Shown: piece after piece, positions 1 to 40,001 of the stretch
Numbering within the stretch: the first letter of the stretch is position 1
Layout of the letters: each line of letters opens with the position of its first letter
DNA from: Balamuthia mandrillaris
Taxonomy: Eukaryota
DNA length: 41,551 nt
Assembly: GCA_031835245.2 (NCBI GenBank)
Contig: JAVKOQ020000007.1
Coordinates: 434,001 to 475,551, forward strand
Direction of reading: 5' to 3'
Translations under genes and position numbers: made by a program
The notes under the pieces: model-generated
Told to the model about the DNA's origin: nothing
What the model saw: only the letters and a program-made list of their open reading frames with translations
Databases searched by the model: none

Positions 1-252
1 TCAGAGACAATGTTTTGCATCCAGATACATTTGTGGACGTATGTGCTCTCTCTCTCTCTCTCTCTCTCTCTCCCAGTCTTTGGATAAACTTAAAAACAAA
101 TGTAACAACGTAAAAATAACAAACTACAACAACAAAATAGTTATTTGATAAAGCTTTAGTGGAAGAAAATCAAAGAGCAGGAGATCTGGAGGCCGCCACT
201 TTTGCAACCACCGTAGAACGCATTCTTGCTGACAAGCTAGACTTACTTCAAG

Positions 253-293
<41 letters not shown>

Positions 294-1059
294 TTCTGAC
301 AAATGGATACTTCGAATTTTTGTTTGTTACTTCTGTAGAGTCTAAGCAAGAGACTCCAAGAAGTGTACCAACAGACAGAGCAACAACTAGACCATGTTCC
401 ATTTGTGGAGGCTTCTTCAGAGACAAGTAATCCCCAAAACTTCGCTCATTCCCCTATCTTTGTGGACAATTCTACATCAGCTGTGATGGTAAGAAACACA
501 TCTATTTCTTAAGAACTAGTTTACGTTCTGATCACATTTTAAATAATCCTATTTCTATTCCTCTTCCTCCTGCAAAGGTTCCTTCTTGGTCAAGCGACTC
601 GACTTTGTTGAACTACGAAGTTGCCCTTTCACAGAATCTGGAGGAGCTGTTTCTTGACAATGTCAACAAAGATAGGTCGATTGCGTTCCAGTACTTCGGG
701 GGGCCATTCACTGGAATCACCCGTTATTATCCTCATTTTCAGTGGGAATCGACCGATGTTGTTGATGCTCGTTTGTCTCCATGGTTCGTCCATCCACCCC
801 ATGAGTGCCGCTGAACTCTTGCTATTGCTTTCGTCTGTTTCTTATATCACGACGAACAAACAGGTACGTGGGTGCGATTACGGGAGCAAAGGGGTTGGTG
901 CTGATTCTGGACACCTCATCCGATATTGGTCAAGATTTCGATTATGTCAAACAGGCTAGCATTAATGTTATCCGTTCTCTGCATGAAGCAGATCACATAA
1001 TGCTTCTTATTGTGCGTTGTTATGGCCCACTTTATCTTTGTTAGTTATTTCTTTCTGAT

Positions 1060-1101
<42 letters not shown>

Positions 1102-1212
1102 GATATCGGATAACGAGTTACAAAAGCCGTCGTGTGTAGGCCAAGTGGAAGGATATGTGCGAGCCACACCTCAAGCTATAGATGCCTTTGTCGCTGCCAT
1201 TGCCGCTTTGTA

Positions 1213-1260
<48 letters not shown>

Positions 1261-1656
1261 TTTTCCGGAATATATATTCATTTGAAAACCGCTGCAAAAT
1301 CATTCTAGAGAACCTAGCCAGGTTATATCCTCGGCTTACAGCAAGGAACAAGCATTCTTGGAAGCATTCGCTATTTTCGAAAGAGAGAGCCAAGATCACG
1401 TTTTAGACGACAATACGGTTGTGCCTGGCAGAGGTACCCAAGCCTGCCAAAACGCGCTGATTTTTGTGGGCTCCGGTAAGAATCTTCCTAAGCCAGAAAG
1501 GTAACTCTTCTCCTTCTTCCTCCTTTTTCGTTTTTATTAATATTAATAAATTTCTAAGATTGACTACGGATTCCTCTGCATTGCCAACAATGCTGTTGTA
1601 TACTATCGGCGCCACACAAAATGATCGGGGTACGCTTAGCTCTCTTCCTCCCTCCC

Positions 1657-1695
<39 letters not shown>

Positions 1696-4600
1696 TTGTT
1701 TTTCATAACGTTCATTTTATAGCGTCTCAATTGGCGTGTTCATCGACTGGATCGGCCTTTTCCTTTGCCCAAGGCGATGGCATAAGTTTACAAAAAAATA
1801 TTACACACTATAGCACCTTCTTGGGTACTGTCGGTCAAAACAACCAAGAAGAGCCTGCTTGGCACATGTCTCTTGGATTTACCAACGATGATAAGCTTCA
1901 AAGTAATACTCTTTTCTCTGTCTCGTTATCCTTGTATTTCCGCTTCTTCTCATACTTTTGCTATTGTTCACCTTCAATAACTCACAGTGGGAGTTGTGAT
2001 GAGTGTAAGCATGCCAGTATATCCCGCTGGATCAGGAGAGAACGGCGACTTGGCGACACCCGTCGGTGTCTTAGGAATGGACTTCGTTTTTGATGACCTC
2101 ATCTTTGCGGAAGAGTCCTTCGAGGTCCGCTTCGACTATGGCTTCCTGGTGAACACCTATGGTGATACTGTTCTTCATCCTGTCATGAGGGATCGCAGTC
2201 AACGCTATTCTTTCCAAGACACAACCTCTCCTCCTTTGTATTATGATATATCTACCTACGAACCGACCCCAGAGTTTAACACTGAAGTTCGTGATCCAAT
2301 GTTTGTGCTTCAAGCTGGTCAAGTGCGTGTTCAACAGGATGTTGACCTTCCTGCTGGTTTGTTCTTCTCTCTCTCTCTCTCTCTCGCGGGCGCGCGCGCT
2401 CTCTCCAAACATTTGTTTATTGCGACAACACAAAACAGGTGATACTGCTTACGAAGGACTGGCAAGAGAATCCGTTAACACGACTTACTTTTGGCAGCAA
2501 TTGGCTTCATTTCCATTTGTAGCCGTACGTGCCATTTCTGATGAGCGTCTCAACCTGAAGATCTTCCGCCCATCTAGTTATCACCGGACAGAAAACAGTG
2601 ATGATTACTTTTATTACTATCGCATTGATGACTACCAAAATATTCCAGCACCCAATCGCAGCTATCATGGTAACGGCTATGGTAACATTAGCGGAGTCAA
2701 TTTTGACTATGGCAATTTTAAGGTTCGTTGGCGTTATGGCAATGTAAGAGCAACTTGGATGGTGCTTATAATTTTTTAGTATGCTCCTAAAGGATGGCTG
2801 GATCCTCAAGCCTATCTCGCTCACGAAGTGGACTTGATAGACCAAGTTATGGAATATGTAAATGAAGCACCTGGTGCCGTCAATCCAGGTTTGTATATCC
2901 CTCTTGTCTCTCTCCCTCTTCCTTTCTCCCTCCTCTCGCCAGAGATATACACGATGACATTACGTAAACAACAGGAATTGAAGAAGAAGCTAAGTACGAC
3001 ACACAGATCGTGTGGCCCATCTTTGATCAATGGATTGCAGCCTTCAAAGACCCGGCTATCATTGATCACTACAAGCTCATTTGGATTTACGTGGGCAGTC
3101 CTCTTGGCTCTATTCATAGCTTCCCCACCGGCGCTGACACCACACCTGACTTTGATACCTCCATTCGCCCATGGAGAGATCGTGCCGCTAGCCAGCCCGA
3201 TAAAGTCGTACTATCAAGGTTCGTCTTTCTGTCAATCGTCTCTTGTTTTTTCGTCCTATTTTGTTCCTTCATCTCTTCTAGCGTTTTTGTTTCTCTCTCA
3301 TTATGTCTTTCTTGGGTGTGTAGTCCGTACGTAGATGGTTTTGGTATGGGTAAAGTGATAGCTCTGGCAATGACTACCAAGTCGCAAGGAGTAAGCCATG
3401 TCGGAGTGCTTGGCTTGGACTTTGGGTACAAAGACTTGCAAGACACTCTCTTCAACCGCACCAATTGTTGGGAAGGGTATGATGATGGCGATTCAACTCA
3501 ACGTGATGCGAAGTGCTTTCTGTTTGACCAAAGCGGCCTTCTTCTTGTCGATCCAGACTTCGTTCAAAGTATCCCTTCTTTCCCTATTTCTTTGTCTTTG
3601 CGTTTCATTTTTAACCAAGCTTTCTTCATAAAAAAGGTGATGATGTTACAAATGTGTTTTTGGGAATCAAGGCTGGAGAGGTGGCACAGTCTCTTCTCGA
3701 AAAAGGTTTTCTCTATCAACATAACCAACTCAACTTGCAAAGCAATCCTCCTATCAATCAAACTGTCTTTGTAGTCAATGATACTATGCTTCAAGGCGAC
3801 GTTTTGGAAGGTACTCTTGTTGTTGTCGTTGTTCTTCTTTTTCTGCTTCTGCTTCTTTTTAAATAACAATCAACAAAAAAAGGGGAGTTGGCTCCAGGAG
3901 GATGCCTTGAAGGACGTTATGTGGTAGTCCCAATCAGAGGTGCTGCGGTAGCTACCACGATGTTCCTTGTCGTTATTCACTCCTACCAAGAAACTGGTCT
4001 AAACTGCACCATTATCTCTGCGCCACCAGCCAATCCGGTCAACCACGACACCTGCACGGAAGTAACCACCGAGTACAAGGACAGACGAACGGTGCTTCCA
4101 ACCTCCTGCCCTCCTCCGTTGATTCCCTCTGCTCTCTCCTTGGAGAAACTGAGACAGACGTTCGGTGCCGACACGTGCCAGGTGCCAAAGGAGACTACGT
4201 GGGTGGAGTGGAGCGATCCTGTCGCTATAGTATTCTTGTCCCTTCTCTTTCTGATCAGTTTTGTAGCTGTAGTCGTTGCAGCTTATTTCGTGTATTACAC
4301 AATGAGCTCGACGTCATCGGAAAAGGCAGCGAAGAGCAAGTCCACGATTTTAAGACAAACCGGCTATTTGTTTAACTTTGGAATGTTGGTGGGATTGGCT
4401 CTCGCGGCTCTCGCTATTCTTCCGTTCATTGGAGAGCCGACCGATACTACATGTGCAGTGAGACCTTGGATGAGCCTATTCTGGGTATTTATTTATGGGT
4501 ATGATTTTAAATTTTGCTCCCCGCAGTTTCCTGTTTATTGTCTGGTTTTTTTCTGATTGTCGAATATTTCTCTCGCTCCCTTATTAGCAACCTTGTGGCA

Positions 4601-5298
4601 AAGCTTGCTTTCATGTTCCGCAGCAAACTGAAACAAAAAGAAGAGGGATTGCTCTTTCCAACGTACTCATGGATTCAAGTCTTGGTTTGTAACGCTGCTC
4701 TTCTATCCATAGAACTGGTGTGTATTTTTCTTTCTTCTCTCTTATTTTTCTCATCTCGCTCGTTCTCTTCGTCTAACATTCGCCTTTCTTGTTTTTCGCC
4801 GTTTCTTTCTTTCAGTTGATCCTCATTCTGTGGACAGCAGTCGACCCACAAAAACCAGAAGTGGAGGAAACGGTCGACAGCGACAAGAACCAGCTCCTCT
4901 GTCGCTCCGAGCATCACCCCGTCTGGCTCGCTCTCCAATATCTCTACATGGCTGTTCTGCTTGTGGCCGGCCTCTCTTTGTCCGTTCTCGTCGGCCGCAC
5001 GCCCACTCGCTTCGACGAGGCCCGCTGGACGTCGTTCGCCCTCTACGGCACGACCATTGCCACCGTCATTACCGTCATCGCCTACTCCCTCCTAGAGCCC
5101 TCCATCCCGGACGCGGCTTTGGCCTTGTTGGGATTCGGCGTGTTGTTGGGCATGGCGGCTGTGTTGTTGCTCCTCTTCTTCACCAAGCTCTTCAGGATCG
5201 CGGTGCACAGGAAGAGAGGAGGAGATAAGGCCGTTGTGGGCGGCCAGGCCGCCAAGTTCGATGTTGACGACGATGACGATGGTCTGGATGACTTGTAA
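1..5298 (+). CDS. Multi-exon gene (5' end lies outside the window): alpha2delta/CACHD1-like ectodomain (VWA_N, VWA, two dCache units) fused to a family-3 (class C) GPCR 7TM domain
   Basis: Spliced exons give: LEELFLDNVNKDRSIAFQYFGGPFTGITRYYPHFQW..DARLSPW|YVGAITGAKGLVLILDTSSD (VWA_N into VWA of alpha2delta); GVVMSVSMPVY..GVLGMDF..YGFLVNTYGDTVLHP; IWIYVGSPLGSIHSFP..FDTSIRPW..SPYVDGFGMGKVI..GVLGLDF..CFLFDQSGLLLVDP (CACHD1-like second dCache). These are followed by WVEWSDPVAIV, IGEPTDTTCAVRPW, LILILWTAVDP, PTRFDEARWTSFALY and LFFTKLFRI (class C 7TM hallmarks). The GT-AG junctions I checked join in frame; stop TAA at 5296-5298. Confidence 0.88.
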
Positions 5299-5521
5299 CA
5301 CTAAACATTCCACATTACATTATTATTTTTCCTCTTCGGCAAGCCCGCAGGAGTAGTTTTGTTCTAACACTTCACGGAGACAACAAAACCAAGATAAGCG
5401 GATCACGATGTATCGGGTTGAGGGCATGGGAAGGTCTTGTTTCCCGCCCAACTGGTGGTGGACTTGGCCGCACAGTAGTTCCTCTACAAAAAGAAAAAAA
5501 TAGCATTTATTATGTTTGGCT

Positions 5522-6043
5522 TCACACTGCTGCCCACATTAGCGTGTCAACTTCGACGGATCGCACGGGGAAGCAGTAATTCGTGAAAGGCCCGACCTCG
5601 ACGTGATCCATCGTCCTCTTTCCCTTGTAGCTCTCCTTGGTGTTGTCCTCCAGGATCACCGTGGCGTTGTCGCGCCAAAAACCGGGGTCGTCCGCGTTGT
5701 CCTCGGCGTACTTCATGAGGGACCTCAGGTGGGCGGTCCCGTCTTGGTCGTCGTAGTACTCCCGTTTGTCCTCCACATATTCCTCTTCCTCCTTGCTGTC
5801 GCTCTCCGTGCGCCCGCGCTTGGGCGAGGGCGGTTCGCCGCCGGATGCGACCACGAAATCGATGGTTTCGAAGAAGTCGTCGTACGCACCGCCCTCCCCG
5901 CGCAGCACGCAGACCACCTCGGAGCCGCACCTGCTCGCCAGCCAGGACGCCAGGTCGGTGGACGAATCCCCGTCGAAGCCCTCGACCTGGTCCTTGTGCA
6001 GGGAGACGCTGGCGACCACGCGTATGTAGTACGATATTCCCAT
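5522..6043 (-). CDS. Hypothetical intronless acidic protein, about 173 aa (MGISYYIRVVASVSLH...TLMWAAV)
   Basis: Single ORF with strongly G/C-ending codons. ATG at 6043 is preceded by an A-rich leader (AAACCAAACCAACC ATG) like other starts in the window. No domain recognised. Confidence 0.6.
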   Translation of the reverse strand: MGISYYIRVVASVSLHKDQVEGFDGDSSTDLASWLASRCGSEVVCVLRGEGGAYDDFFETIDFVVASGGEPPSPKRGRTESDSKEEEEYVEDKREYYDDQDGTAHLRSLMKYAEDNADDPGFWRDNATVILEDNTKESYKGKRTMDHVEVGPFTNYCFPVRSVEVDTLMWAAV

Positions 6044-6893
6044 GGTTGGTTTGGTTTCGGTGTTCTTTCTTTCTTTTGGAGAAAGACTGCCTCCCTGAGG
6101 GCGGTGGAGTGGTTTCATATTTGAATGCTTCGGAGATTGCCCCTGCCGCCGTGAATGATTTCCATAAGAGGCAGTTATCCGATATTTTTATATCACGCCG
6201 CGGAACCTATTGCTCAGAAAAGGGTATTCTACAAGGGGAGTATGGCTCTGCGAAGGTGAACGGGTTCACGTGGCAGCAACACATCCCGTCTCCTCTCGTT
6301 GTTTTTATTTTTTTGTACAATGCGATCAAACTGATGGTCTTCACGAATTCTGTTTTTCTTCCTCTCCCGTCAGCCTCTATTCTGGTGCGGGTGTTTTGTT
6401 GGATGCAGACACCAAGAAGGACGAGAACGGAGTAACCACGCGCAGCAATGTATTGGGTCCCGCTCTTCTCTTGACTCTCTCTGGCAAACAAACAGCCGCG
6501 AAATTTTTCATGAAAAATGCTCTTCATTCTCTCTCGCTCTCCATCTCCTGTTGCTCAAGGCCACCCTCCTATCCTCAAAGAAGCAGAGGAGGAAAGAACC
6601 AAGAGTCTGATGGGAGTGAACCAGCATTACAGTGAAGCAAAAAAATGAGAACCACTTGAAGACCTATTGACCAGAGGAACAGCTCCACAAGCCCCAAGGA
6701 GGAGAAATGGTCCAGCATCTGTGGTCATTACATTCGTGTCGTCGTGAAAAATCGACAGAAACGAAAAAGAAAAAAAGGAAAAGAAAAGAAAAGGACTTCT
6801 GTTCTTCTTCTTCCATCGAAGAGAGCTGCTCGAAGTTAAAAAAAAAAAAAGCGGTCCGACGTAAGACACAAACAGCGAGGAGAGAGAGAGAGA

Positions 6894-9800
6894 ATGTCGT
6901 TTTGGGGCAAGGTGGGTGCGGTCTTGGCACCGATGCCTGATGTGGACACGGCCTCCATCAAGCTGCTGATGGAACGCCTGCGAAACAGCACCACAGCGGA
7001 TGAGAGCAAGAAGCTGCTCAAGATCCTCAAGGCGCAGGCCAGCAACAAGGCAGCCCATGAGGTTCCTCTCTTACTTTTACCCTTTTTTTTTTTTTTGTGG
7101 TCATCATCTATCGACACTTTCAATAGATTGATTTCTATTTTATTTTATTTTTTTTTTTTGGGGTTAATAACAGGAAATAGGGAAAGGAATGGCAGAGCTG
7201 CTTTCCATCCTCAGAACAGAAAAGGAGGACGTGGAGTTGACCTGCGACGTGTTGGAGATCCTCAACCAAATCATGACGTGCCCTAAGGAGGGTGCTAGGG
7301 ATGCCTCCAGCTATGTCGAGCTTGTTAACACAGAGGAATTCCTTAGGGTTTGCGTCCCTCTCCTCTCCTCTTCTCTTCTTACTTCCTTTTCTCAGTTGTC
7401 TCTCTTCTCTCTTCCTTCTCTTTTCTGATGTAGCTTTTATTTGCTGAGAATATTAGGAGTCGAAAAACGTGATGATTCTGTTGGAACTATTGGAGCAGAA
7501 AAAGTCGTACGTGAGGCTGAACACCACTCAGTTGTTGATCACTCTCCTCACCAACAAGGACGACAAGATATTTGAGCTGCAAGACATCGTCTTGAGAAGC
7601 CCAGTTGGCATTCCTTATCTCATGGAGTTGCTCGCTGACAGCAGAGACAGTGTTCGAAATGGTCTTTCTTTATTCTCTGTTTCTTTCTTCTTTCATCTTT
7701 CTTACTCTATTTTGTTTTCATCTTTCTAGAGGGTTTGCTGTTGCTTCAGGCATTAGTAGAAAACAACCAAGAAATCCAAAAAATAGTAGCCTTCAACGGC
7801 GCCTTTGACCGACTGTTCACCATCATTGAATCAGAAGGTGGAGCGGAGGGAGGTATCGTGGTGCAAGACTGCCTATGCCTGATGTCAACCCTCCTCAATG
7901 GCAACGTCTCCAATCAAAACTACTTTCGTGAGACGAGCTGCATTCAGCGATTGCCTTTGTTATTGGAGCTTGAAAGCAGTGACATGTGGCTTCTCACCGA
8001 CAACAAGCAGGCTGTGCTCGTCCACACCTTGAAATTAATTTCTTTGCTCATCTCAGAAAACAATCCCAACACGCATACAAATCAGGTATATTGCATTGTT
8101 TTAGACTTCTTTTCTATGCTATTAACAGTATCCTTTCGTTGATACAAAAATACAGCTGATGATGAACAAGCATGGCGTGTTGACTCAGGTCGTGCGGCTG
8201 GCAATTAGCAGAATCAACTCAGCTGATGCTAGGAGTCAGGTATATTTCTGTCTGCTCTCCGTTTCTTCGCTATCCGTATTATTTTCTTTTCTTCTTACCC
8301 TTCTCTCTATTATCTCTTTTCTGTTCTTTCTTTCATGCAATAAAAAAGGCACTTAGGACACTCGGAGACATGCTACGAGGCTGTTCAGAGAACAGAACCG
8401 CATTCTCTGCTCAAGTGGTTGAAACGGGAGAGGACAAAAGGCCACAACCTGCTCTCCACCGCTTGGTGGTCATCATGCTTCACTCGCGAGAAATTACAGA
8501 GCGTCTTGCTGCCATGTACACTTTTCAATGCTACCTTCACGCCAACGAAGAAGCTCAACTCGCGATAGCTTCCACGTTGACGCCACCACCGACCATCACA
8601 AACAACTTGCGTGAGGAACAACCTGTTGTTGGCTTTTCGATCGGCCGTAAATTGATTCATGCTTTGTTGGGGGAGTATTTGACGGATACCGTCGTTGAAC
8701 CAACCTCCTTGAGTCCCAGGGACCACTCACCACGCTCTGGCCAAGATGAAAGGGACGCCTTGTGTCCTTGGTAACTCTTTCTTACCCTTCTTTTCGCTCT
8801 CCTACGGGAGTTGTGATAAAAAGAATAACTTGTGTTTATTTTGCATTTGTAGGTTTGCTGCTTGTGTGTTATCTTCAATCCTCAGCATGAATGAAGAATG
8901 TAAAGAACTTGTACTTCGCATCCCATTGGAGATACCACGAATGGAGGGACCACTTCCCACTCTCATGACTAAATGCAATCAAGCCCTCTTTGAACTCACT
9001 CGTGCTGCCGCTACGTCCAATGAAAGCACACTCTATAGAGTGGGCCTTTTGCGTTTGCTATGTACTTGGCTCTACGAATCCCCTGCTTCTGTGAAGGCCT
9101 TCTTGTCTGCTCCCAAAAATCTTCCCTTTGTACGCTTTGTTTGTTTGTTTGTTTGTTTGTTTCTTTGTTTGTTTGTTTGTTTGTTTGTTTGTTTGTTTGT
9201 TTGTTTGTTTCTCGTCTTCTCTTCCTTCCGTTCGGACTCCTCTTCTGTCCTCTGTAACTTGTTGATCTTTTAACTGTGTTTATCTATTAAACAAAACAGA
9301 TGATGGAAACAGTAATGCAGCCCCCCGCGTCCCACAACCTGCAAGTGCAAGGTCTCTGCGCAATGATAATTGGTCTTTGCTTCCAGTATGATGACGACGC
9401 CAGTTCTACCTCTGGCTCGTCTTTCAACCGAACTGCCCTCCACAACGTCATTACCAACCGTATTGGTTTGGCCAAGTTCACAAAAGCACTTGAAAGTCTC
9501 CGTAAGAGTCCTGCTTTTATTTTTGCTGAACAGGAAAAGGTCTATTATTCTTTTCCCATTCCTTTTCTCTTTTCTTACAAATATATTGTTTTATTATCAC
9601 TGCAGGACGTTGTGGAAACGAAAGAAGAAGCACAATCGTTTAACATACGCAACGAGCAATGCCTCAACAAAATACTTTACGACTACGACTTTACCATCTT
9701 TTTCAAAGATTGCTACGGTAAACATTTTTTTCTCTGCTTTCTGTTACCATATTCCTAATTCTATTTTACACAACAGACAAACTTACACGACAGTTACGTT

Positions 9801-10960
9801 CTCCGTTTTCCTCTTTGGGCCATTCTCGTACTCGTTCGGCAGGAGGCAGTCTGCCATCCTCATCAGGAGACTTGGTAGCATTAGGTAAACAGAAAAAGAA
9901 AAAGAGCAGGGCTCCATCTCCTGAAGCCACCGATCTTGGCATCGATGAAGAGAATGAACTCGAACCGCCAAAAGATAAACAGAAAAAGAGCAGCCAAATG
10001 AACGATGCTATTCTGCAATCTTACAAAGAGCTCATCCACAATCAAGACATCCAAATGGAAGCGTTGAAACAAAAGCGTTCGTACTCCTTTTTTATTCCCT
10101 CTTTTGTTTACTCACACTTCTCTCTCTCTCTCTCTCTCTCGCTCTCGCTCTTAGTGGCCGAAATGGAAGCCAAGTTACAAGAGAATTCACTCCGTCGCAT
10201 CAACTCCGAGCCTTCATTCTCTCTCGCTGCTGCAAACGAATCGTCATCGCGTAACAACGAGGAAAGAAACAATGAGTTAAAGGTGTTACTACAACAACGC
10301 GAAGCAGAGATAGCATTCCTGAAGAAACGACTTGAGCAAAAGAATCAAAACGACGCGAAGCAAAACGGAGGAGAAGGAGAATCGACACTACAAGAAAGGG
10401 AAGCGGAGATTGCATCTTTGAGAGAAGAACTTTTGGCACTCTCTCACGCTTTCAACGAATTGGAACTTCACTCTCGCGAGACAGAAGAAGAGCTCGAACG
10501 AACTCGACAAGAACTGTCTTCTCTGATCAACACAAGTGGGAGAAACGAGAACGAACAGGAGCGGAGAAAGAAGATGGAAGAAGAGTTAATCATGTTAAGA
10601 GCTCAATTGGAAGCAGAGAGACAAGAAAGAAACAAAATGCTCGAAGAGAGACGGATGCAACATACCAACACGGAAGAATTGGAGCGTGTTCAAAGGGAAT
10701 TGGAAGTATTGAAACGACAACAACAGAGCCCAACGCCAGCGACTTCTTCTCCTCAACAGGCTGCAGCATTGCCGCCAGATGAAGAGACAATTCGATACCT
10801 GGAAGAGAGAATAGAGGAGTTGGAGGCGGAGTTGCAGGAGACAAAGTCCCGATTTGCAAGCCTGGAGGAGGAGCAGAACGACTTGTTGGTTTGTCTGGCC
10901 AAAGCGGAGATGGAGAACAACAACCTGAAGCAACGGCTTTCCTCTTCTTCTGGCCGTTAG
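6894..10960 (+). CDS. USO1: Vesicle tethering factor Uso1/p115 (armadillo head plus coiled-coil tail), multi-exon
   Basis: Conserved p115 head motifs LLLLQALVENNQEIQKIVAFNGAFDRLFTIIESEGGAEGGIVVQDCL..LLNGNVSNQNYFRE and VQGLCAMIIGLC. Long heptad coiled coil; C-terminal EQNDLLVCLA motif. Confidence 0.93.
9137..9210 (+). repeat. (TTTG)n microsatellite in a USO1 intron
   Basis: Tandem tttg units directly visible. Confidence 0.9.
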
Positions 10961-11506
10961 TTACCAGCAATACATGCTGATACATTCTTCCGGGTGCTGG
11001 AGAGGTTTGTCCTCATGACTTGGTACAAGAGACGAGAGAGATGAAAGAGAGAGGAGAGAGGAGAGGAGAGAAAGTATTAATCATGACGACATGAAAATCA
11101 ACGAGGGTTCGGGTAAATTCATTAACACAATTTGTAGGAAAAGAGGGTGGGCGACAAGAAGGAGAGCGCTGTCTACGAGTACTAGCGGTTCTACACTGGA
11201 CAAATTTGTCCCATGAGCGTCCAACATCTTGGGCACCTTAATATTATTAATCTCTGCTGTGCAAAAATATAAAAACATTTGAAAAAAAAATCTCTTGGTG
11301 ACTGCTGTTCATCGGCAGGGCTAGCCTGGTAACGCAAAGGAAGGAAGGCCCCTTCTCTTCTGGTTTTTTTTTCCTTCCAAGAAGAAGAAGAGAGAAGCAA
11401 AGACGACGAAGGAAGAGTTCCGGTCGTCGGGCTGCATTACAAACCTCCCCAATATATAAATATAAATATATACAGCATTACACGGCAGAACAGATTTATA
11501 TATTAG

Positions 11507-18442: not shown

Positions 18443-19555
18443 TCACAAGAACTCAGCGTGGCCTTCATAACAGACGCCATTGGCAGCTGCAGAGCCCAAC
18501 TTCAAGAACTCCTCGTTGTAGTAGAGGTGCTTGGTGTCCACCAGATCCACATACAGCTTCCCCCACAGATGGTCTATTTCGTGCTGCAGCACGCCAGCGG
18601 CGTAGCCCACTGCTTTGATCTTCCTCTCGGTGGCCGTCTCGTCCAAGTAGGTCATGTGGCAGTGCTTGAAGCGACTCACCTTCCCGCTTTGTGTTTTCCA
18701 AAGAGGTTGATATGAGACAGAGAGAGAACAAGAGAGAAGAGGAGACGCCGAGAAGCAGAAGATAAACTTACGTAAGGCCAGGAACGGAGAGGCAGCCTTC
18801 CCACATGAAAATCTTTTCGGTAGTGGGGAACTCGAGCTTAGGATTAAATATTACAGTTCTAGTTGTGTGGACAGCAAAAAAAAAGTGTTGGCACAAAAAA
18901 AAAAAGTGATCAAGGTAAAAAGATAATCACCACACACGAACCTTGGAAAAGGCTTCACGCTGGCCATCCCCGCGGGGATCTCTACGATCACCACCTGTTT
19001 GTTTACGGAGATCTGGGGCGCGGCAAGGCCGATCCCGTTCTGTGCTTTCATGGTGGCCAGCATGTCCTTCACAAGGACTTTGGTAGAGGGGTTGAGTATC
19101 TCTTGCCTGGTAAACGGGCTGGACATCACCCGCAGCACCGGGTTCCCCAGCCGAGCCACCTGTCGTGCCGTCATCTCTCTCTTTGCGGTGTTTTTCAACC
19201 CTAAGTTTTGAAATTCTAAGAAAAAATTGGAATGAAAGCGAGCGAAGAGAAGAGAGAAGAGAGACGAGAGGAGAGATGAGAGAGTGCTCCGGATAATGAG
19301 AGAAGAGAGAAGAGAGAAGAGAGAAGAGAGAAGAGAGAAGAGAGAAGAGAGAAGAGAGAAGAGAGAAGAGAGAAGAGAGAAGAGAGAGAGAGAAGAGAAG
19401 AGAGAAGAGAGAAGAGAGAAGAGAGAAGAGAGAAGAGAGAAGAGAGAAGAGAGAAGAGAGAAGAGAGAAGAGAGAAGAGAGAGGAACAGAAAAATACGAG
19501 AGTTTCTGCGTTTTATAAATAATGGTTGGAGGGGGGGGGATCTGCTACAGCTCAT
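18443..19555 (-). CDS. PDF: Peptide deformylase, probably mitochondrial; catalytic part begins at ATG 19174, with a putative presequence exon at 19555-19498
   Basis: All three PDF motifs are present after splicing: GIGLAAPQ, EGCLS and QHEIDHL, plus N-terminal LGNPVLR. The upstream exon is inferred (see findings). Confidence 0.92.
19297..19482 (-). repeat. Heptamer tandem repeat (AGAGAAG)n on the + strand, roughly 25 copies
   Basis: Directly visible; lies inside the predicted first PDF intron (19201-19497). Confidence 0.9.
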
Positions 19556-22500
19556 CGACAACAGGCTCTTCCTCTTGTCCATGAGAGTGATGGATGTGCG
19601 TGGGGTGGTGGTGATGCTGATGGTGGTGATGGTCGGTGAGTACCACATCATCATGCTCATCCTCAGGTTGGTGCAGCGCTGAGGCAGCCTCTTCCGATGC
19701 ATGTAAGTGGTGATGCTGGTGCTGTTGCTGGTGATGGTGATGGTGATGTTCCTGATCGACAGCGGCGGTGGTACCGTCCACAACGATGTGCTCTGTGGTG
19801 ACCCCAGTAGCTCCTGAGTGTGGAAAGTGTTGCATGTGGTGCGGCTCCAGGGAAACTAATCCATGGTGATGATGCGGGGATCCAAAATGAAGGAGCTGTT
19901 GTTGCTGTTGTTGCTGGAACTGAAGCTGCTGTTGTTGAAGCTCCAAGGCAGAAGGCTCCAATGGCAACGTGGCAAACTGTGGTTGTTGTGGTTGTTGAAG
20001 TTCTTGTTGTTGTTGATGATGGTGATGCAAAGCAGCGGCAGCTGAGGAATTGGTGGCAGCGGCATACTGCTGGGCGAGGCCTTGCAAGTGCAGCTGCACA
20101 GCCGTTATTTGGCTTGGCGTCAGCGATTGCATCAGCTCCGTTGTGGTTGCGGTGACCCCGCCGTTGTTAACGGTTGCTAGGTTATTTGTGCTGTTGTTAT
20201 TATTGTTGCTGGCTAGGGAGGAAGCGATGGTGGGGGAGGAAGTGCCGTTGGTGAGGTGTTGATGAGGAATGGGTTGCATGTTTTTGAGCAACATGGTTTC
20301 CAAGCTTTGCAGAATATCGCGCAGGGAGTTGGGGTCTCGCAGAGCGTTGAGATTGGCTTCTTGCAACTGCTGCTGTTGTTGTTGCGAGAAAGATGAAAGG
20401 GTAGTGGTGGAAGAAGAGGAGGAAGAGGGGGAGGAGGAAAAGCATGAGATAGGAGCAGAAGAGAAGGCAGCAGTAGAGAGCATGGGGGCCGAGGGTGAGA
20501 TGGCAGTAGCGGAAGAGGGAATAGAAGGTGCAAGAGGGAGCGCAGAGGAGGAGGTGCAAGCGGCGGATGAAGCAGCCACTGCAGCAGCCACAACAGCAGC
20601 AGCTTCCACCGCAGAGGAGACATCAATTCCCATGGCGGCCAGTTCGGCAAGGTTAGCCTGATGGGTGGCCATCAGAGCAGCGGCAGGCGAGACGTGGGCA
20701 GCCAATTGGCCCGTGACTTCGTGCTGCATCTTGAGGGCCTTGTTGCGAGCAGCGACCAAGCTGCGCCACCGAGAGTAGCACTGAGCGCCCGTCCACTTGG
20801 TTCCTTCCGCCACGTCCGACCATACAATGTCCTTCATGACCTTGTAACCTCCCACCAGCACCCGTTGTATGAGCAGGAAATCATCCTCGGGAGACCAAAG
20901 CTGCTTGTTGAGGGAAGGATCCAAGGCTTTGAACCAGTGGCTGCGGCATTGATTGTAGTTCCTTGTGCCCATCTGCTGCGAGATTCGCACCCAAAACTCT
21001 CCCCCAGAGGGCACCACAAAAGGTCGGGAGGGATCCTTCTTTCTGGGCTTGGCTTTGCGCTTCTTGGGTTTCCTGGGAGGCGGACTGCTGCTGGCGGAGT
21101 CTCCATCACTGCTCGAGCTGGCAGAGGCAGCAGCCTCCGCGATGGCATCAGCGTCAGTCTCCGGCAAAAGGGCGGGCAGAGCATCAGCCTCGGTGGTGGG
21201 CGTGGCAGTGCCAGAGTTGGCATCCATTATGGCCTTTTGCACCAACATCGTCAGCCTTTGGTCCTCCGCCTCGGTCCAAGGTCCTTTGGTCAGTTTTGTG
21301 GGTTCAATGCTCATTGAGCGGATTTTGTCGCGAACGCTGCCGCGATTGCGGCCCATCTTTCTACCTATCTTGGCCCAGTTCCTGCCGTACTTGGCATAGA
21401 GCCTCTTCAGCTGGGCCACTTCTTCCGGAGTGTAGGCTCCTGTGTTGATGTTGCGGTCATTGCGGCTGAAGCACCGCCGACAGTGATCAAAGCAAGCACT
21501 GATGGAGCGATCTGGCAGCACCGAGGCGATTTCCTTCCAGCAACCCTTGAACTGCCGGAAGCTCTTCTGGCTGAGGAAGGCTGCTATAGAGGTTCTGTCG
21601 GTGCCCAAGTCGTTCTTTGCACAATAGTCCTGGATGGCTTTGTAGAGTTTCATGTCTTCCTCCTGGGAGAATTTGCCTTTCTTCACGTGTTGCTTGCTGT
21701 TGCGCCACCGAGTTCCGCCGCCCTTCTCTTTGCGATCGCCTTCTTGTTCATGCTCCACAACACCCACCAAGGCAGCAGCCAAGCCATCTTCCTCCGATTC
21801 ATCTGGCATCTCCGTTTGTTGTTGATGTACGTCTTCTCGTGCGTTCTCGATCGTAAGGGCGCTGTCCTCCACACCACCGGTCATGCTCGCGTAAATGTGT
21901 CCAGCGTCACCATTCTCAAGGTTGGCATGTTGATGGTGGTGTTGTTGCTGTTGTTGCTGTTGTTGAAGCGCCAAATGATGGATGTGGGCTGCTTGAGCAT
22001 GGGCATGAGCTACTGCCAAAGAAGACAAAAGAGCATTTGCTTGCGTTGTGTCCCAACCAACCCCAGTAGGGTCCAGCATCGTGTGGTGGTGTTGGGCTTG
22101 AGATTGATGGTCTGAGCTGTCGGCTTCGTGCGGTGCGCCCTGGTGCAGCAGATCTTGATCTTCCGCCTCACTCTGCCCATCCCCTGCCAACACCAACGCG
22201 CCATGGCCTGCGTCCTCCTCTCCCTCGTTCCTATCTTGCGTGTGATGCTGTGGTTGCGACTCTTGACGACTGCGCTTTGTGGGTGGTTGAGTAGCAAGCA
22301 ATGCATGCTGTTGCGCAGCTTCCACGTCTATATCCACTTCCTCAGTGCCATGTTCGTGTTCATGTTCATGTTCGTGTGCATGCACATGCTCCTGCTCGCC
22401 CTGTCGTTGGTCGTCGTGATGATGCTGCTCTAAGTGGTGCACTAGGGAGTGGTGGTGAGGGTAGTCCAACAAGCTTTGATCTTCCACCCCTGCCTCTCCG

Positions 22501-22814
22501 CCTTCTACTCTCGTTGCCTCTCGGCTCTCTTCGCTGAGGTCATCGGGTTGTCCAAACGAAGCCACAAACCGGTGGTGTTCCTCCTCCTCCGCTGCCGAAC
22601 CGTGGGCCTGCGTATGCAGCTGCTCTTCCTCCTCTTGTCTCTTCCGTTTCCGCCCAAAGTCCTGAATGAGAGTGCCGCGAGAAGACTCGTAGCCCGACAG
22701 ATCCAGGCTTATTCCTTGGACAGATAAGTGGTCTTCCTCCTCTTCATGTTCGTGGTGATCCTCGCCCTCTTTCAAAGAGTGATGGTGTTGCTCGTGTAGC
22801 GCTTCCATGTCCAT
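19545..22814 (-). CDS. Myb-repeat DNA-binding protein of the Reb1/Nsi1/TTF1/DMTF1 type, about 1089 aa, intronless CDS
   Basis: KKGKFSQEED..WKEIASVLPDRS..GAYTPEEVAQLKRLYAKYGRNWAKIGRKMGR..VRDK..KGPWTEAED..WVRISQQMGTRNYNQCRSHW..WSPEDD. Flanked by His/Gln/Ser-rich low-complexity regions. Confidence 0.88.
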   Translation of the reverse strand: MDMEALHEQHHHSLKEGEDHHEHEEEEDHLSVQGISLDLSGYESSRGTLIQDFGRKRKRQEEEEQLHTQAHGSAAEEEEHHRFVASFGQPDDLSEESREATRVEGGEAGVEDQSLLDYPHHHSLVHHLEQHHHDDQRQGEQEHVHAHEHEHEHEHGTEEVDIDVEAAQQHALLATQPPTKRSRQESQPQHHTQDRNEGEEDAGHGALVLAGDGQSEAEDQDLLHQGAPHEADSSDHQSQAQHHHTMLDPTGVGWDTTQANALLSSLAVAHAHAQAAHIHHLALQQQQQQQQHHHQHANLENGDAGHIYASMTGGVEDSALTIENAREDVHQQQTEMPDESEEDGLAAALVGVVEHEQEGDRKEKGGGTRWRNSKQHVKKGKFSQEEDMKLYKAIQDYCAKNDLGTDRTSIAAFLSQKSFRQFKGCWKEIASVLPDRSISACFDHCRRCFSRNDRNINTGAYTPEEVAQLKRLYAKYGRNWAKIGRKMGRNRGSVRDKIRSMSIEPTKLTKGPWTEAEDQRLTMLVQKAIMDANSGTATPTTEADALPALLPETDADAIAEAAASASSSSDGDSASSSPPPRKPKKRKAKPRKKDPSRPFVVPSGGEFWVRISQQMGTRNYNQCRSHWFKALDPSLNKQLWSPEDDFLLIQRVLVGGYKVMKDIVWSDVAEGTKWTGAQCYSRWRSLVAARNKALKMQHEVTGQLAAHVSPAAALMATHQANLAELAAMGIDVSSAVEAAAVVAAAVAASSAACTSSSALPLAPSIPSSATAISPSAPMLSTAAFSSAPISCFSSSPSSSSSSTTTLSSFSQQQQQQLQEANLNALRDPNSLRDILQSLETMLLKNMQPIPHQHLTNGTSSPTIASSLASNNNNNSTNNLATVNNGGVTATTTELMQSLTPSQITAVQLHLQGLAQQYAAATNSSAAAALHHHHQQQQELQQPQQPQFATLPLEPSALELQQQQLQFQQQQQQQLLHFGSPHHHHGLVSLEPHHMQHFPHSGATGVTTEHIVVDGTTAAVDQEHHHHHHQQQHQHHHLHASEEAASALHQPEDEHDDVVLTDHHHHQHHHHPTHIHHSHGQEEEPVVDEL

Positions 22815-23395
22815 CGAGTAAACGCACACCCAAAGGCACTGCAAAAGAGGGATTTCAATCGTGTCATCAATAACCGTTCTAGAAAAAAAAAAAAAACAAA
22901 AAGAAAGAAGAAAGAAAACCAGTAATCGCTATCATGGTGAATTTTCTTTTTCATCGTCGCTTCTTCCACTCTAACAATCAATCACATTCTCCTCCCCCCT
23001 TTGCTACTTTTTTTTTATTCTCTCCTTTCACTCAAATAATAATAATAATAAAAAAAAGAACCTTACCCTTCTTTCTTTTTTTTTTTTGTTTGCACAAAGC
23101 GGTGCTTGTGGGTTTCTCCTTTTCGTTGAAAGTCAGGGGAGCACTCGAGCGGTGGGTTCCCCCCGCATACACGCACAGCAAACTTTGTTTGTGTGTGTTT
23201 TTATTTTTCGAAGGGGGGAGTTGTGGGTTCCCCCTCTCTTTCTTTTCTGTTTTTTTTTTTTGTGGAATTTTTGAATTTTTTCTTTTCCTTTTCTCAATTT
23301 TTGGTAGACAAAGTGAGGGGTCATCGATCGATTTTAAAACGGGGCAGCTCACTTTGTGCTCGTTTGGTGCAGGAGAGCCGAGGCAGAGAAGAGAG

Positions 23396-36384: not shown

Positions 36385-36896
36385 AAGAGTGATGCATAAA
36401 GCTCTTGTAACAAAAAAAAACAAACTGTGATTTCTCTTTGCGCAACGACTTTCTTCTGCTTTTTATCCATGTCGTCACGGATAACGTCGACAAACTGTGA
36501 CATTTACCTTTTATACATGCCTGACGTAACCACTTTTACCAAAAAAGGTAACTTGACTCATTTTTTCACTAAAAATGGAAACCAAAAAATTAAAAATTAA
36601 AAGCAGGAGGGAAATCGACGCAAGAAAGGATAACCCGCGGGAGGAGAGAAAGGGGTGTAGTCAGCTTTTGTGGTGGTGTGTACCACTCCTTGTAATTGAT
36701 TCGCATTTTTTTTAATTTTTATATTTGACCTGCTTTTTTCTTTCTTTCTTTTCTTTTCTTTGCAGAAAAGGCCGAATGCGGAATAGGCTCCATCGTGCTC
36801 CGTCTTTGTTTGTCGGTTTGTCAGGAGTTGTTCTGGTAATTCTTCGAGAGGCGGAAACAACGAAGAAAGAAGAAACAAAGTCGGGTGCTGCCAACC

Positions 36897-37956
36897 ATGT
36901 CTTCCTTCAATGAGTCCCGGATGACGGAGCGTTACCCCTTGCTCGCCTTGCACGACGAGGAGGAGGAGGAGCAGGAGGAGGAAGAAGAGGACGAAGAGCC
37001 AGAAGACGACTCCACCGCGCTCGCGCAACAACGGCCTGGTCAGACAGCTCGTGGCAAGCGCCGCCAAAGACGTAGCCCAGGCAGGTCCTCCTTCACGAGC
37101 TCCGCTCCTCCCTCCACGGCGGGCTCCTGGGACCCCTCCGCTGCCCCACACCTTCTGGACGAGCCCAACCAAGGGCAACGACGCACCCAACCGCTGCCAG
37201 CACCCCTTCACAAGCGACACACGGAGCATGCGCTAGGCAGGAAAAAAGCAAGCCACACCTCCACCCCCTCCCCCAGGAAGAGCAACACGTACAACCTCTC
37301 TCGGCGCACTCGCTCCAGCGGCGGGCTGCAACGCGGTCGACAGAAACGACTGCAACAGTCGCATCCCAATCTTACGGGCGGAGGAGACAAGAGAAAGGTG
37401 AACGCGGAGGAAGGAGGAGGGGAGGGCGAGGAGATCAAGGAAGAAGATGAGGACAAACACAGGAGGAAGGAGGAGAAGAGTGGGAAGGAGAGCGAGAGCG
37501 ACGCTGAGAAGAGAAGATCGGCCTACGAGGAGTTGCTTGCTCTAGGAGGGTTCAAGTCCAGTAAAGACGCTTACGCACAACAACCGGCCTTTGTTCCTTC
37601 GACAAGAAAGGAGCCAGACCTGCTTGCACAAACGCTCCAAAGGTTACTTACCCTGTTCCGTCGACCCCGTATGACTCTCAAGGACACGATGCTGCTGAGC
37701 CCATGGCAAAAGTGGAAAAAGTACAATCGAGTGCCATGGAAGATCTTCCTGCACCTGTTCATGTTCTTGGTGGTGGTGGTGCAAGTTCTACTCATTTACG
37801 TGGAGACCTCTCAGTACTTTTATGCCAATCAGCGGGTCTTTCACAAAGTCTTTTTGGGAGTCGACTCAGACACGTTTAGACAGGAACTCTATACTATTGA
37901 CGATACTCTCGAGCATATTAGCACCACTGTCCTAAATGTACCTTCCTTCCCTCCTC

Positions 37957-37988
<32 letters not shown>

Positions 37989-38516
37989 GTTGTATAACTT
38001 TTTATTAACGTTGATGGTGTTACCAGTACTATAATGTAGATAACATAACAGCAGATAAGTATCCGCACGTGTTAACAACGTCGGATGGGACGAAAGCAAG
38101 AGCACAAGGCCTTCTCATACCATTAGAAGAGATATATGGTCGCAGCAGCAACGACAGCGACGACACTGATAAGACTATTCAGCCAGTGGATATGGAGCTG
38201 ATTCTTTACGAGCGCGACTTTTATAACTTCAACACCAGCGAGCCTTATGGATGGACCTTGGCCACCGATGATGTGGAAACAGAAGAGGAGGAGTATGAGC
38301 TGACGCTAGAAAACCCGTTGGGACCCTTTGGAACGAGCAACGAGTCGGCGGTGCAGGCGCTCTTTCATCGCGTGGTAGAGATTAAGTTAAAGTTTTCTTT
38401 GTACAATCTTGATATTGGAAGTCTTGGCCCTGTTCCTTTTCTTTGGAGCATTGAGGTATTTTCATTTGTTATTCCTCTCTCCCTTCCTCTCTCTCTCTCT
38501 CTCTCCCTCTATCTCT

Positions 38517-38547
<31 letters not shown>

Positions 38548-39946: not shown

Positions 39947-40001
<55 letters not shown>

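What the first reader, a model, noticed from the sequence alone, without database searches (positions are those of the whole stretch)
1..5298. Class C GPCR whose ectodomain is a whole alpha2delta/CACHD1-like module (VWA_N-VWA-dCache-dCache)
Seen in the sequence: one spliced reading frame runs from an alpha2delta-type VWA_N (QYFGGPFTGITRYYP..DARLSPWY), VWA and two dCache units directly into a class C 7TM. The junction (..TCQVPKETTWVEWSDPVAIV) lies inside a single exon, so the fusion is not an artefact of my splicing. Established: animal alpha2delta and CACHD1 are GPI-anchored or single-pass modulators of voltage-gated Ca2+ channels, and alpha2delta binds amino acids and gabapentinoids. Classical class C GPCRs use a Venus-flytrap domain, while GPR158/179 use a Cache domain. 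Inference: here the alpha2delta scaffold serves as the ligand sensor of a G-protein-coupled receptor, possibly a nutrient or prey chemoreceptor. It could link the evolution of alpha2delta/CACHD1 to that of Cache-type class C GPCRs. I cannot exclude that this architecture has already been catalogued computationally in protists.
Basis: partly seen in the sequence, partly recalled or inferred. Interest (0 to 1): 0.88.

Follow-up and report, generated by a model that had tools for sequence, protein, structure and literature searches.

The report
Receptor wearing a calcium-channel subunit's ectodomain
An amoeba gene joins the whole outer part of the calcium-channel helper proteins alpha2delta/CACHD1 to the seven-helix membrane part of a glutamate/GABA-type receptor, a design also found in other protists that likely works as an amino-acid-sensing receptor.

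Summary
Confirmed. Eighteen exons (17 GT-AG introns) encode residues 9-1292 of a Balamuthia mandrillaris protein; two overlapping spliced contigs from a probable RNA run cover residues 115-1247, one running from the Cache region to helix 7. A confident model (pLDDT 84) aligns residues 1-979 with whole alpha2delta-1 and CACHD1 ectodomains (Z 30-33) and 985-1200 with class C 7TMs (Z 17). It is a family: 18 of 148 other hits carry dCache2 plus 7TM on one chain, among them Paramoeba and the rhizarian Amorphochlora. No link to GPR158/179 emerged. Fused ectodomains cluster but their 7TMs do not, pointing to repeated domain swapping. G-protein coupling is less sure here because Arg3.53 is missing. 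'Cache_1 + 7tm_3' was already listed for diatoms; ten paper searches found no description of the whole module on a GPCR. The scan had not noted this fusion elsewhere. Ligand and coupling are untested.

The parts
3..5298 (+). Coding region, 18 exons: 3-38, 141-251, 339-488, 578-783, 864-1011, 1103-1209, 1309-1500, 1559-1629, 1723-1902, 1988-2356, 2439-2722, 2780-2888, 2975-3218, 3324-3568, 3637-3810, 3883-4498, 4588-4717, 4816-5298; residues 9-1292 of P0001. Start and probable signal peptide lie upstream of the window.
   Evidence: exact match to P0001; spliced contigs; paralogue P0002 has 52 more N-terminal residues with a hydrophobic leader
3..389 (+). N-terminal stalk helices of the two nested dCache domains (residues 9-74)
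   Evidence: model helices 2-24 and 34-74, pLDDT above 90; model residue 1 aligns to alpha2delta-1 residue 40
372..867 (+). VWA_N = first half of dCache1 distal module; amino-acid motif degenerate (Val169 for Tyr, Ser174 for Arg at 776-778, Trp176 kept)
   Evidence: Pfam VWA_N E 2.5e-12
895..1847 (+). VWA domain inserted in dCache1 (residues about 183-390); MIDAS degenerate (DTSSD at 910-924)
   Evidence: structural matches to VWA domains, Z 15-18, rmsd 2.4-2.9
1860..2524 (+). Rest of dCache1 (residues 395-560); Asp440 kept, Tyr position not kept
   Evidence: bacterial dCache domains align to model 27-575, Z 16
2879..3932 (+). dCache2 distal and proximal modules (residues 660-900)
   Evidence: alignment to CACHD1 8s7c; CtaA 6pxy hit at 701-797, E 4.6e-5
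3151..3420 (+). Predicted amino-acid pocket: Phe722, Arg727, Trp729 (3151-3174), Tyr746 (3328-3330), Asp776 (3418-3420); the Tyr after Trp is Arg730
   Evidence: against the motif definition in PMC8915833
3883..4498 (+). Junction exon (residues 885-1089): end of dCache2, cysteine-containing delta-like linker, TM1, TM2 and start of TM3
   Evidence: covered by RNA-type contig with 0 differences
4206..5187 (+). Class C 7TM (residues 992-1256): Cys1074/Cys1161, Lys1094 (3.50), Glu1200 (6.35), Lys1256 (7.51) kept; Arg3.53 is Phe1097, Pro7.50 is Thr1255
   Evidence: Pfam 7tm_3 E 7e-33; GABA-B2 E 4e-12; Z 17.5 to mGlu2/CaSR
5188..5298 (+). Short cytoplasmic tail ending in an acidic D-G-L-D-D-L motif
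   Evidence: sequence; 7 of the 8 receptors of its 7TM clade end in a like motif

Best explanation
This expressed Balamuthia gene encodes one chain in which a complete CACHD1/alpha2delta-type ectodomain is joined to a class C seven-helix domain, and it likely works as a nutrient chemoreceptor that would bind an amino acid in its second dCache domain and would signal through a heterotrimeric G protein. Shown: the single spliced frame, both folds, the kept R-W-Y-D pocket residues in dCache2, the lost Arg in dCache1, the degenerate MIDAS, the kept TM3-ECL2 cysteines and Lys3.50/Glu6.35/Lys7.51. Inferred: ligand binding closes the dCache2 distal module; the change passes through the cysteine-containing linker, which occupies the place of the delta chain's membrane anchor, to TM1 and re-orients a receptor dimer as in other class C receptors; dCache1 and the VWA serve as scaffold; output is G-protein activation by this chain or by a dimer partner, steering movement or feeding.
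For: Spliced frame and RNA-type contigs. Model pLDDT 84.1, pTM 0.75; residues 1-979 align with alpha2delta-1 40-1071 (Z 32.7, rmsd 6.2, 779 aligned) and CACHD1 62-998 (Z 30.8, rmsd 6.6, 799 aligned), 985-1200 with mGlu2 (Z 17.5, rmsd 2.6, 189 aligned). The next Foldseek hits after alpha2delta/CACHD1 are mostly amino-acid-bound chemoreceptors PctA, CtaA, PctB, PctC. Four of the five ligand-contacting residues defined in PMC8915833 are exact (R, W, Y, D) and the fifth is Tyr-to-Phe, as in CACHD1's own alignment row; spacing 15 and 29 residues fits 13-17 and 27-34. The core motif is kept in 10 of 16 fused proteins. Class C hallmarks in 18 fused 7TMs: both Cys 18 of 18, Lys3.50 17, Glu6.35 17, Lys7.51 17, Arg3.53 16. 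Amoebozoan class C receptors sense GABA and folate in Dictyostelium (PMC10445921). Cav alpha1 is reported lost in Amoebozoa (PMC4202318).
Against: No binding or coupling data exist. Arg3.53, whose change to Ala abolished GABA-B2 signalling (PMC8222003), is Phe in both Balamuthia paralogues and absent in all 8 rows of their 7TM clade; Pro7.50 is Thr. The Tyr after the motif Trp is Arg730 in both paralogues. 6 of 16 fused relatives have lost the dCache2 core motif yet keep the architecture, so the module can persist without it. CACHD1's proven partners are proteins (FZD, LRP6; PMC7615972) and its amino-acid binding rests on docking. I could not inspect pocket geometry, model TM6-7 of this protein with confidence, or check the Balamuthia G-protein set (no genome held).
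Confidence: 0.5

Rival explanations
1. The ectodomain binds something other than a free amino acid: a protein or surface molecule of prey, host or sister cells (as CACHD1 binds Frizzled and LRP6, and GPR179 binds pikachurin), or another small molecule; the 7TM reports contact.
For: CACHD1 ectodomain binds FZD5 and LRP6; GPR179's Cache binds pikachurin; 6 of 16 fused relatives lack the amino-acid core motif; a 980-residue module is far more than a small-molecule pocket needs; low-confidence insert 585-642 could be a binding loop.
Against: The MIDAS, the usual protein-binding site of a VWA, matches DxSxS in 1 of 14 fused proteins against 27 of 41 unfused; R, W, Y and D are kept in both Balamuthia paralogues at only about 60% identity.
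Confidence: 0.2
2. It binds an amino acid but is not itself a G-protein activator: it is the ligand-binding or trafficking subunit of a heterodimer without G-protein output, or it signals through RGS or sorting adaptors as the Cache-type receptors mGlyR/GPR179 do.
For: Arg3.53 and Pro7.50 are missing in this clade (PMC8222003); GPR158/179 work with RGS7; a conserved acidic C-terminal motif in 7 of 8 clade members suggests a shared adaptor.
Against: Lys3.50, Glu6.35, Lys7.51 and the ICL3 Phe are kept; 16 of 18 fused relatives keep Arg3.53; the whole clade, including Venus-flytrap receptors, lacks Arg3.53, which suggests co-evolution with a local G alpha rather than loss of function (inference).
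Confidence: 0.18
3. It is a calcium-channel auxiliary subunit like alpha2delta that merely uses a 7TM as its anchor.
For: Whole-ectodomain fold identity with alpha2delta-1 and CACHD1; CACHD1 modulates Cav channels despite a poor MIDAS (listing and passages).
Against: MIDAS needed for alpha2delta-1/2 action is degenerate; Cav alpha1 reported lost in Amoebozoa (Balamuthia not sampled there); class C switch residues are conserved, which an inert anchor would not need.
Confidence: 0.07
4. The fusion is an artefact of gene prediction or assembly joining two neighbouring genes.
For: No single long read or contig spans the entire frame; the two RNA-type contigs break at residues 455-463; X1 is RNA only by the tool's guess.
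Against: Junction inside one exon; one spliced contig runs from residue 455 to 1247; paralogues on separate contigs and 18 other clusters have the same join.
Confidence: 0.01

Closest known systems
CACHD1 (VWFA and cache domain-containing protein 1; PDB 8S7C, 9EQ6)
   Same: Best sequence hit (E 4.6e-22 single, 9.2e-30 profile) and best Foldseek hit; nested double dCache with inserted VWA; amino-acid motif in the second dCache, first one degenerate; degenerate MIDAS.
   Different: CACHD1 is single-pass with an FZD-interaction region and a cytoplasmic tail; here the structural match ends at CACHD1 residue 998-999 and a class C 7TM follows; about 19% identity.
alpha2delta-1 (CACNA2D1)
   Same: Same fold over 40-1071, including the delta part up to the anchor (Z 32.7); Pfam VWA_N.
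   Different: alpha2delta-1 has its ligand site in dCache1 (Arg241, Asp491) and an intact MIDAS; both are lost here; it is membrane-anchored without a 7TM and serves Cav channels; Pfam VGCC_alpha2 is not hit.
Class C GPCRs with Venus-flytrap ectodomains (GABA-B, mGlu, CaSR; Dictyostelium GrlE)
   Same: Full 7tm_3 domain, TM3-ECL2 disulfide pair, Lys3.50-Glu6.35 lock, Lys7.51; GABA-B1/B2 are the best sequence hits.
   Different: No ANF/Venus-flytrap or NCD3G domain; Arg3.53 and Pro7.50 replaced in this protein.
GPR158 (mGlyR) and GPR179
   Same: Class C 7TM carrying a Cache-type ligand domain and a cysteine-rich linker; mGlyR senses an amino acid (titles and passages).
   Different: They have one small Cache core (six strands, three helices) on an EGF-like domain, not a nested double dCache with VWA; not detected among hits of either half; most simply convergent.
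Diatom 'Cache_1//7tm_3' receptors (Thalassiosira pseudonana TP_7830)
   Same: A Pfam Cache_1 hit N-terminal to 7tm_3 in a protist, listed in PMC3251606, PMC3727952 and the supplement of PMC3971589.
   Different: Those passages name no VWA, no second dCache and no alpha2delta/CACHD1 relation; I could not obtain the sequence, so it may or may not belong to this family.
Protist double-dCache_1AA proteins and the streptophyte dCache-VWA kinase (Gumerov et al. 2022, PMC8915833)
   Same: Same ectodomain, traced to the last eukaryotic ancestor; includes Paramoeba atlantica proteins with the motif in the second dCache only.
   Different: The text names a Ser/Thr kinase fusion but no GPCR; 7tm_3, GPCR and PF00003 occur 0 times in its 6 held supplementary files, which list ids and motifs rather than architectures.

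Membership tests
Class C GPCR | Full 7tm_3 domain above Pfam cut-off and class C fold | tested here: met
   114.7 bits against 33.5, profile 2-251 of 251; TM1-5 align to mGlu2, CaSR, mGlu1 at Z 17.4-17.5; TM6-7 not in the confident model
Class C GPCR | TM3-ECL2 cysteines, Lys3.50-Glu6.35 lock, Lys7.51 | tested here: met
   C1074, C1161, K1094, E1200, K1256 (motifs)
Class C GPCR | Arg3.53 and the FxPKxx proline | tested here: not met
   F1097 and T1255 in P0001 and the same in P0002; 16 of 18 and 12 of 18 fused proteins keep them
Class C GPCR | Constitutive dimer | tested here: inconclusive
   complex prediction gave no answer; see Tried and rejected
Class C GPCR | Activates a heterotrimeric G protein | not testable with these tools
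   needs an assay
alpha2delta/CACHD1 superfamily (ectodomain) | VWA inserted in dCache1, dCache1 nested in dCache2 | tested here: met
   sequential alignment of model 1-979 to alpha2delta-1 40-1071 and 1-947 to CACHD1 62-998; VWA at 183-389, bacterial dCache at 27-575
alpha2delta (CACNA2D1-4) | Amino-acid motif in dCache1 (Arg241 equivalent) | tested here: not met
   Ser174; 0 of 14 fused against 37 of 41 unfused rows keep the Arg
alpha2delta (CACNA2D1-4) | Intact MIDAS DxSxS (alpha2delta-1 and -2) | tested here: not met
   DTSSD in P0001, DTSRD in P0002
alpha2delta / CACHD1 proper | GPI anchor or single transmembrane helix | tested here: not met
   7TM follows the ectodomain
dCache_1AA amino-acid sensor | Y121, R126, W128, Y144, D173 equivalents with 13-17 and 27-34 spacing | tested here: met
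   F722, R727, W729, Y746, D776 in dCache2 (Tyr at 121 in the paralogue); Y129 position is Arg
dCache_1AA amino-acid sensor | Measured amino-acid binding | not testable with these tools
   needs thermal shift or ITC
GPR158/GPR179 | Single Cache core on an EGF-like cysteine-rich domain | tested here: not met
   the ectodomain is a 980-residue nested double dCache with VWA against the GPR179 description
GPR158/GPR179 | 7TM groups with GPR158/179 in a tree | tested here: inconclusive
   no GPR158/179 sequence was available for the trees; they are merely unlisted

The most novel reading that the evidence does not exclude
A previously undescribed, widespread protist receptor family (Amoebozoa and Rhizaria at least, perhaps diatoms) uses the entire alpha2delta/CACHD1 module as the agonist-binding domain of class C GPCRs. 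One receptor-adapted ectodomain lineage, which shed the dCache1 site and the MIDAS, was grafted repeatedly onto different 7TM chassis and onto other multi-pass domains. This would be a third way for class C receptors to sense amino acids, convergent with GPR158, and a natural read-out for how ligand binding moves the alpha2delta/CACHD1 scaffold.
Probability: 0.4. Interest if true: 0.87.

Novelty: new variant of a known kind. Interest (0 to 1): 0.72.

Why it matters
Animal alpha2delta binds amino acids and gabapentinoids, and CACHD1 carries a predicted amino-acid site, but neither has a signalling domain of this kind, so what ligand binding does to the scaffold is hard to read out. A natural fusion to a class C 7TM makes that question testable with ordinary GPCR assays. 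It also shows Cache-type class C receptors are not an animal invention (a recent opisthokont survey found none outside animals, PMC12716839), adds a receptor class to Amoebozoa beyond the ANF and BMP types described, and names candidate chemoreceptors in a pathogen with few drug targets, whose relative Acanthamoeba castellanii is reported to have no family 3 GPCR.

Tried and rejected
No whole genome is held, so the 5' end, other paralogues, G proteins and Cav channels of Balamuthia were not checked. No run holding the stretch is on record as RNA in the index; the lay is what counts. A second lay on runs X2-X5 gave no result, so there is no DNA-run control and no second-species RNA evidence. 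Word-index searches found only the Balamuthia paralogues and one weak hit; the exhaustive search overturned the impression of a one-species oddity. The metagenome scan found 515 pattern matches, none confirmed. The Atlas gave alpha2delta/CACHD1 and VWA clusters at 0.78-0.85, leads only, none with 7tm_3 among the rows shown. Folding P0004 without an alignment failed (pLDDT 37.7). A two-copy 7TM complex scored 0.02, 'no answer', no evidence either way. The dCache2 exon alone gave no significant PDB hit. GPR158/179 were not listed in any PDB search; several of these show only the top rows. The TP_7830 sequence was not found in the held supplements. A single origin of the whole fused receptor was rejected on the 7TM tree. 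Weak Pfam hits on single exons (NleG, nairovirus Gn, flagellin) are below cut-off and were dismissed. Paper searches returned nothing relevant.


Full report
Observation. The window begins inside a + strand gene with short introns. A search with the exon at 3885-4496 returned a 1292-residue NCBI protein of Balamuthia mandrillaris (P0001, 100% identical) and a paralogue (P0002, 59%). A script found one GT..AG solution for each of 17 introns, and the 18 exons translate exactly to residues 9-1292 and a stop at 5298. P0001's annotated start has no leader, whereas P0002 and P0003 have about 52 more residues with a hydrophobic leader; the true start is therefore probably upstream of the window (inference). 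Pfam finds VWA_N (E 2.5e-12) and a complete 7tm_3 (E 7e-33) on P0001; VWA is only E 0.14 and dCache_1 appears only weakly on P0002.

One transcript. Of four runs laid, X1 (contigs; RNA by guess) gave a 2378-nt and a 1045-nt contig. Their offsets agree with the exon model at 9 of 9 places tested; they cover residues 455-1247 and 115-463 and overlap by 27 nt. The break falls where the paralogue's sequence is near-identical, and a loose end at 2198 reads as the paralogue. Eleven joints are listed; introns 5, 6 and 10 are implied by the offsets; introns 1-3 are uncovered. Raw RNA-seq reads of X6-X8 (41, 36 and 17 laid, from 3-5% of each run) show joints at introns 7, 8, 9, 13 and 14. The junction exon 3883-4498 holds the end of dCache2, the linker, TM1, TM2 and the start of TM3, and the contig matches it with no difference. 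A second lay gave no result.

Anatomy. Against PDB sequences the best hit is CACHD1 (E 4.6e-22), then GABA-B2 (4e-12) and alpha2delta-1 (3e-11); a two-sequence profile gives CACHD1 E 9.2e-30 over positions 108-931. An AlphaFold2 model of residues 1-1200 on a 104-row alignment has pLDDT 84.1 and pTM 0.75, poor only at 78-101 and 585-642. Residues 1-979 align with alpha2delta-1 40-1071 (Z 32.7, rmsd 6.2, 779 aligned) and 1-947 with CACHD1 62-998 (Z 30.8, rmsd 6.6, 799 aligned); 183-389 match VWA domains, 27-575 bacterial dCache domains, and 985-1200 class C 7TMs (mGlu2 Z 17.5, rmsd 2.6, 189 aligned); a search of 48,161 chains without Foldseek agrees. So TM1 starts where alpha2delta's anchor would be. 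TM6-7 were outside the 1200-residue limit.

Ligand site. PMC8915833 (read: part 2 of the whole text, section 12, passages, supplement searches) defines the amino-acid motif as PctA Y121, R126, W128, Y144, D173, places it in dCache1 of alpha2delta and dCache2 of CACHD1, and reports that R126A, D173A and alpha2delta R241A damage binding. In P0001 the dCache1 copy has Val169 and Ser174 for Tyr and Arg; the dCache2 copy has F722, R727, W729, Y746, D776 and aligns directly to CACHD1's. Across relatives, the dCache1 Arg is kept in 0 of 14 fused and 37 of 41 unfused rows, DxSxS in 1 of 14 and 27 of 41, and the dCache2 core (R, W, Y/F, D) in 10 of 16 and 45 of 48 (rows are related, so these are descriptions, not independent trials; 11 rows that are or may be fragments were left unlabelled; near-copies P0003, P0004, P0154-P0157, P0163, P0165 were dropped and P0038, P0041, P0047, P0050 replaced by longer cluster mates).

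7TM. Both disulfide cysteines, Lys3.50, Glu6.35 and Lys7.51 are present (motif roles from passages of PMC11437087 and PMC8222003). Against the simple reading, Arg3.53 is Phe1097 and Pro7.50 is Thr1255; R577A abolished GABA-B2 signalling. The other 16 of 18 fused 7TMs keep Arg3.53.

A family. An exhaustive search with P0004 (a 991-residue piece of the paralogue) found 1944 proteins at E up to 0.001; of the best 150, one is P0001, one could not be fetched and 148 were examined. With profiles of my own (built from 11 fused proteins, so circular for 9 of those counted), 18 of 148 carry dCache2 and the 7TM on one chain, 76 only ectodomain and 54 a 7TM without dCache2. Pfam independently gives 7tm_3 in 18 of 18, a Cache-family hit at E up to 0.01 in 13 of 18 and VWA_N in 6 of 18, and VWA_N in longer cluster mates of two more. 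All 18 were looked up; 3 bear an organism: Paramoeba (P0010), Paramoeba atlantica (P0041) and Amorphochlora amoebiformis (P0018), a rhizarian. The rest are unnamed environmental or transcriptome records. Ranks below 150 were not seen, so 18 is a floor.

History. On a 75-row ectodomain tree, 13 of 16 fused proteins fall in one branch (SH-aLRT 95) with Cymbomonas P0167 and P0058, which carry other long C-terminal regions with several hydrophobic segments; one clade of all 16 plus those two is not rejected (p-AU 0.73; group named after seeing the tree). On the 7TM tree the 18 fused rows need 6 changes, 0 of 200 bootstrap trees make them one group, and one clade is rejected (p-AU 5e-10, LG+G4; group defined beforehand). 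The Balamuthia pair sits (100/100) with six receptors bearing ANF, CUB or 5'-nucleotidase ectodomains, and 7 of these 8 end in a like acidic motif. I read this as ectodomain shuffling among class C chassis. The trees are unrooted, hold no named animal references and have long branches, so no direction or donor is claimed; the losses in dCache1 and MIDAS suggest the fused ectodomain is derived rather than ancestral to alpha2delta (inference from the double-motif ancestor proposed).

Mechanism. Most likely (0.5): an amino acid binds dCache2, the linker passes the change to the 7TM, and a G protein is activated by this chain or a dimer partner; ligand, dimer and coupling are all inferred. Rivals: a protein or other ligand (0.2; CACHD1 binds FZD and LRP6, passages of PMC7615972), amino-acid binding without G-protein output (0.18), a channel auxiliary (0.07; Cav alpha1 reported lost in Amoebozoa, passage of PMC4202318; MIDAS role from passages of PMC9901441), artefact (0.01).

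Prior knowledge. Ten full-text searches returned no paper describing a VWA/double-dCache ectodomain on a GPCR; the library lacks most subscription papers. However, a Cache_1 domain on a class C receptor of the diatom Thalassiosira pseudonana is stated in PMC3251606 (passages), in a figure legend of PMC3727952 and as '/Cache_1//7tm_3/' in a supplement of PMC3971589 (file 1 not searched). PMC12716839 (section 9 and passages) found no Cache domain in non-metazoan glutamate receptors of opisthokonts; its Supplementary file 12 was not held. PMC10445921 (passages, section 10) lists ANF, BMP or no domain for amoebozoan family 3 receptors and none in Acanthamoeba castellanii, which shares Centramoebida with Balamuthia. 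PMC4822843 (passages) does not mention GPCRs. Public databases hold the proteins under generic names. The scan's own notes held no such fusion; one note on an Asgard split alpha2delta-like pair was not tested.

Verdict. It is a new variant of two known kinds, partly glimpsed as a Pfam string in diatoms. Interest 0.72.

Noticed in passing
P0015, P0017, P0022, P0027, P0028, P0034 (hits): Class C receptors with ANF, CUB and 5'-nucleotidase ectodomains share one 7TM clade (100/100) with the Balamuthia pair, all lack Arg3.53, and most end in an acidic D-[GED]-L-[DE]-x-[LI] motif (P0030 has a like end): a lineage-specific 7TM chassis with swappable sensors and an unexplained C-terminal signal. Their organism was not looked up.
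   Followed up: partly
P0167 (Cymbomonas tetramitiformis, 1952 aa), P0058, P0088: The same ectodomain subfamily sits on other long C-terminal regions with several hydrophobic segments and no 7tm_3 hit; a cluster mate (P0166) has a weak TRP hit (E 0.001) and P0058/P0088 have Ephrin_rec_like repeats.
   Followed up: partly
P0006, P0012, P0025, P0036, P0160, P0162: Fused receptors that have lost the amino-acid core motif in dCache2 (and, where the N-terminus is present, the dCache1 Arg): candidates for other ligands.
   Followed up: no
P0002, P0003, P0004 (Balamuthia contigs other than the window's): At least one paralogous locus, in three near-identical records; RNA loose ends at window 2198 read as the paralogue, so it seems expressed too.
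   Followed up: partly
window 5525-6051, - strand: GC-rich single-exon ORF of about 175 residues, convergent with the receptor gene, no Pfam hit, with some RNA cover.
   Followed up: no
window 5413-5473: A 60-nt stretch attracts many reads and a deep contig with three differences, a deletion and unrelated flanks; probably a repeat or another transcript's piece.
   Followed up: no
window 6893-41354: Neighbours look unrelated to the receptor: USO1/p115 (about 6893-11000), IQ-motif and EF-hand ORFs, peptide deformylase, a Myb protein (19548-22928, -), RFX, homeodomain, ankyrin and AN1 zinc-finger genes; ORFs at 36840-40055 look mucolipin-like by eye (recalled, no Pfam hit on the three exons scanned).
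   Followed up: no
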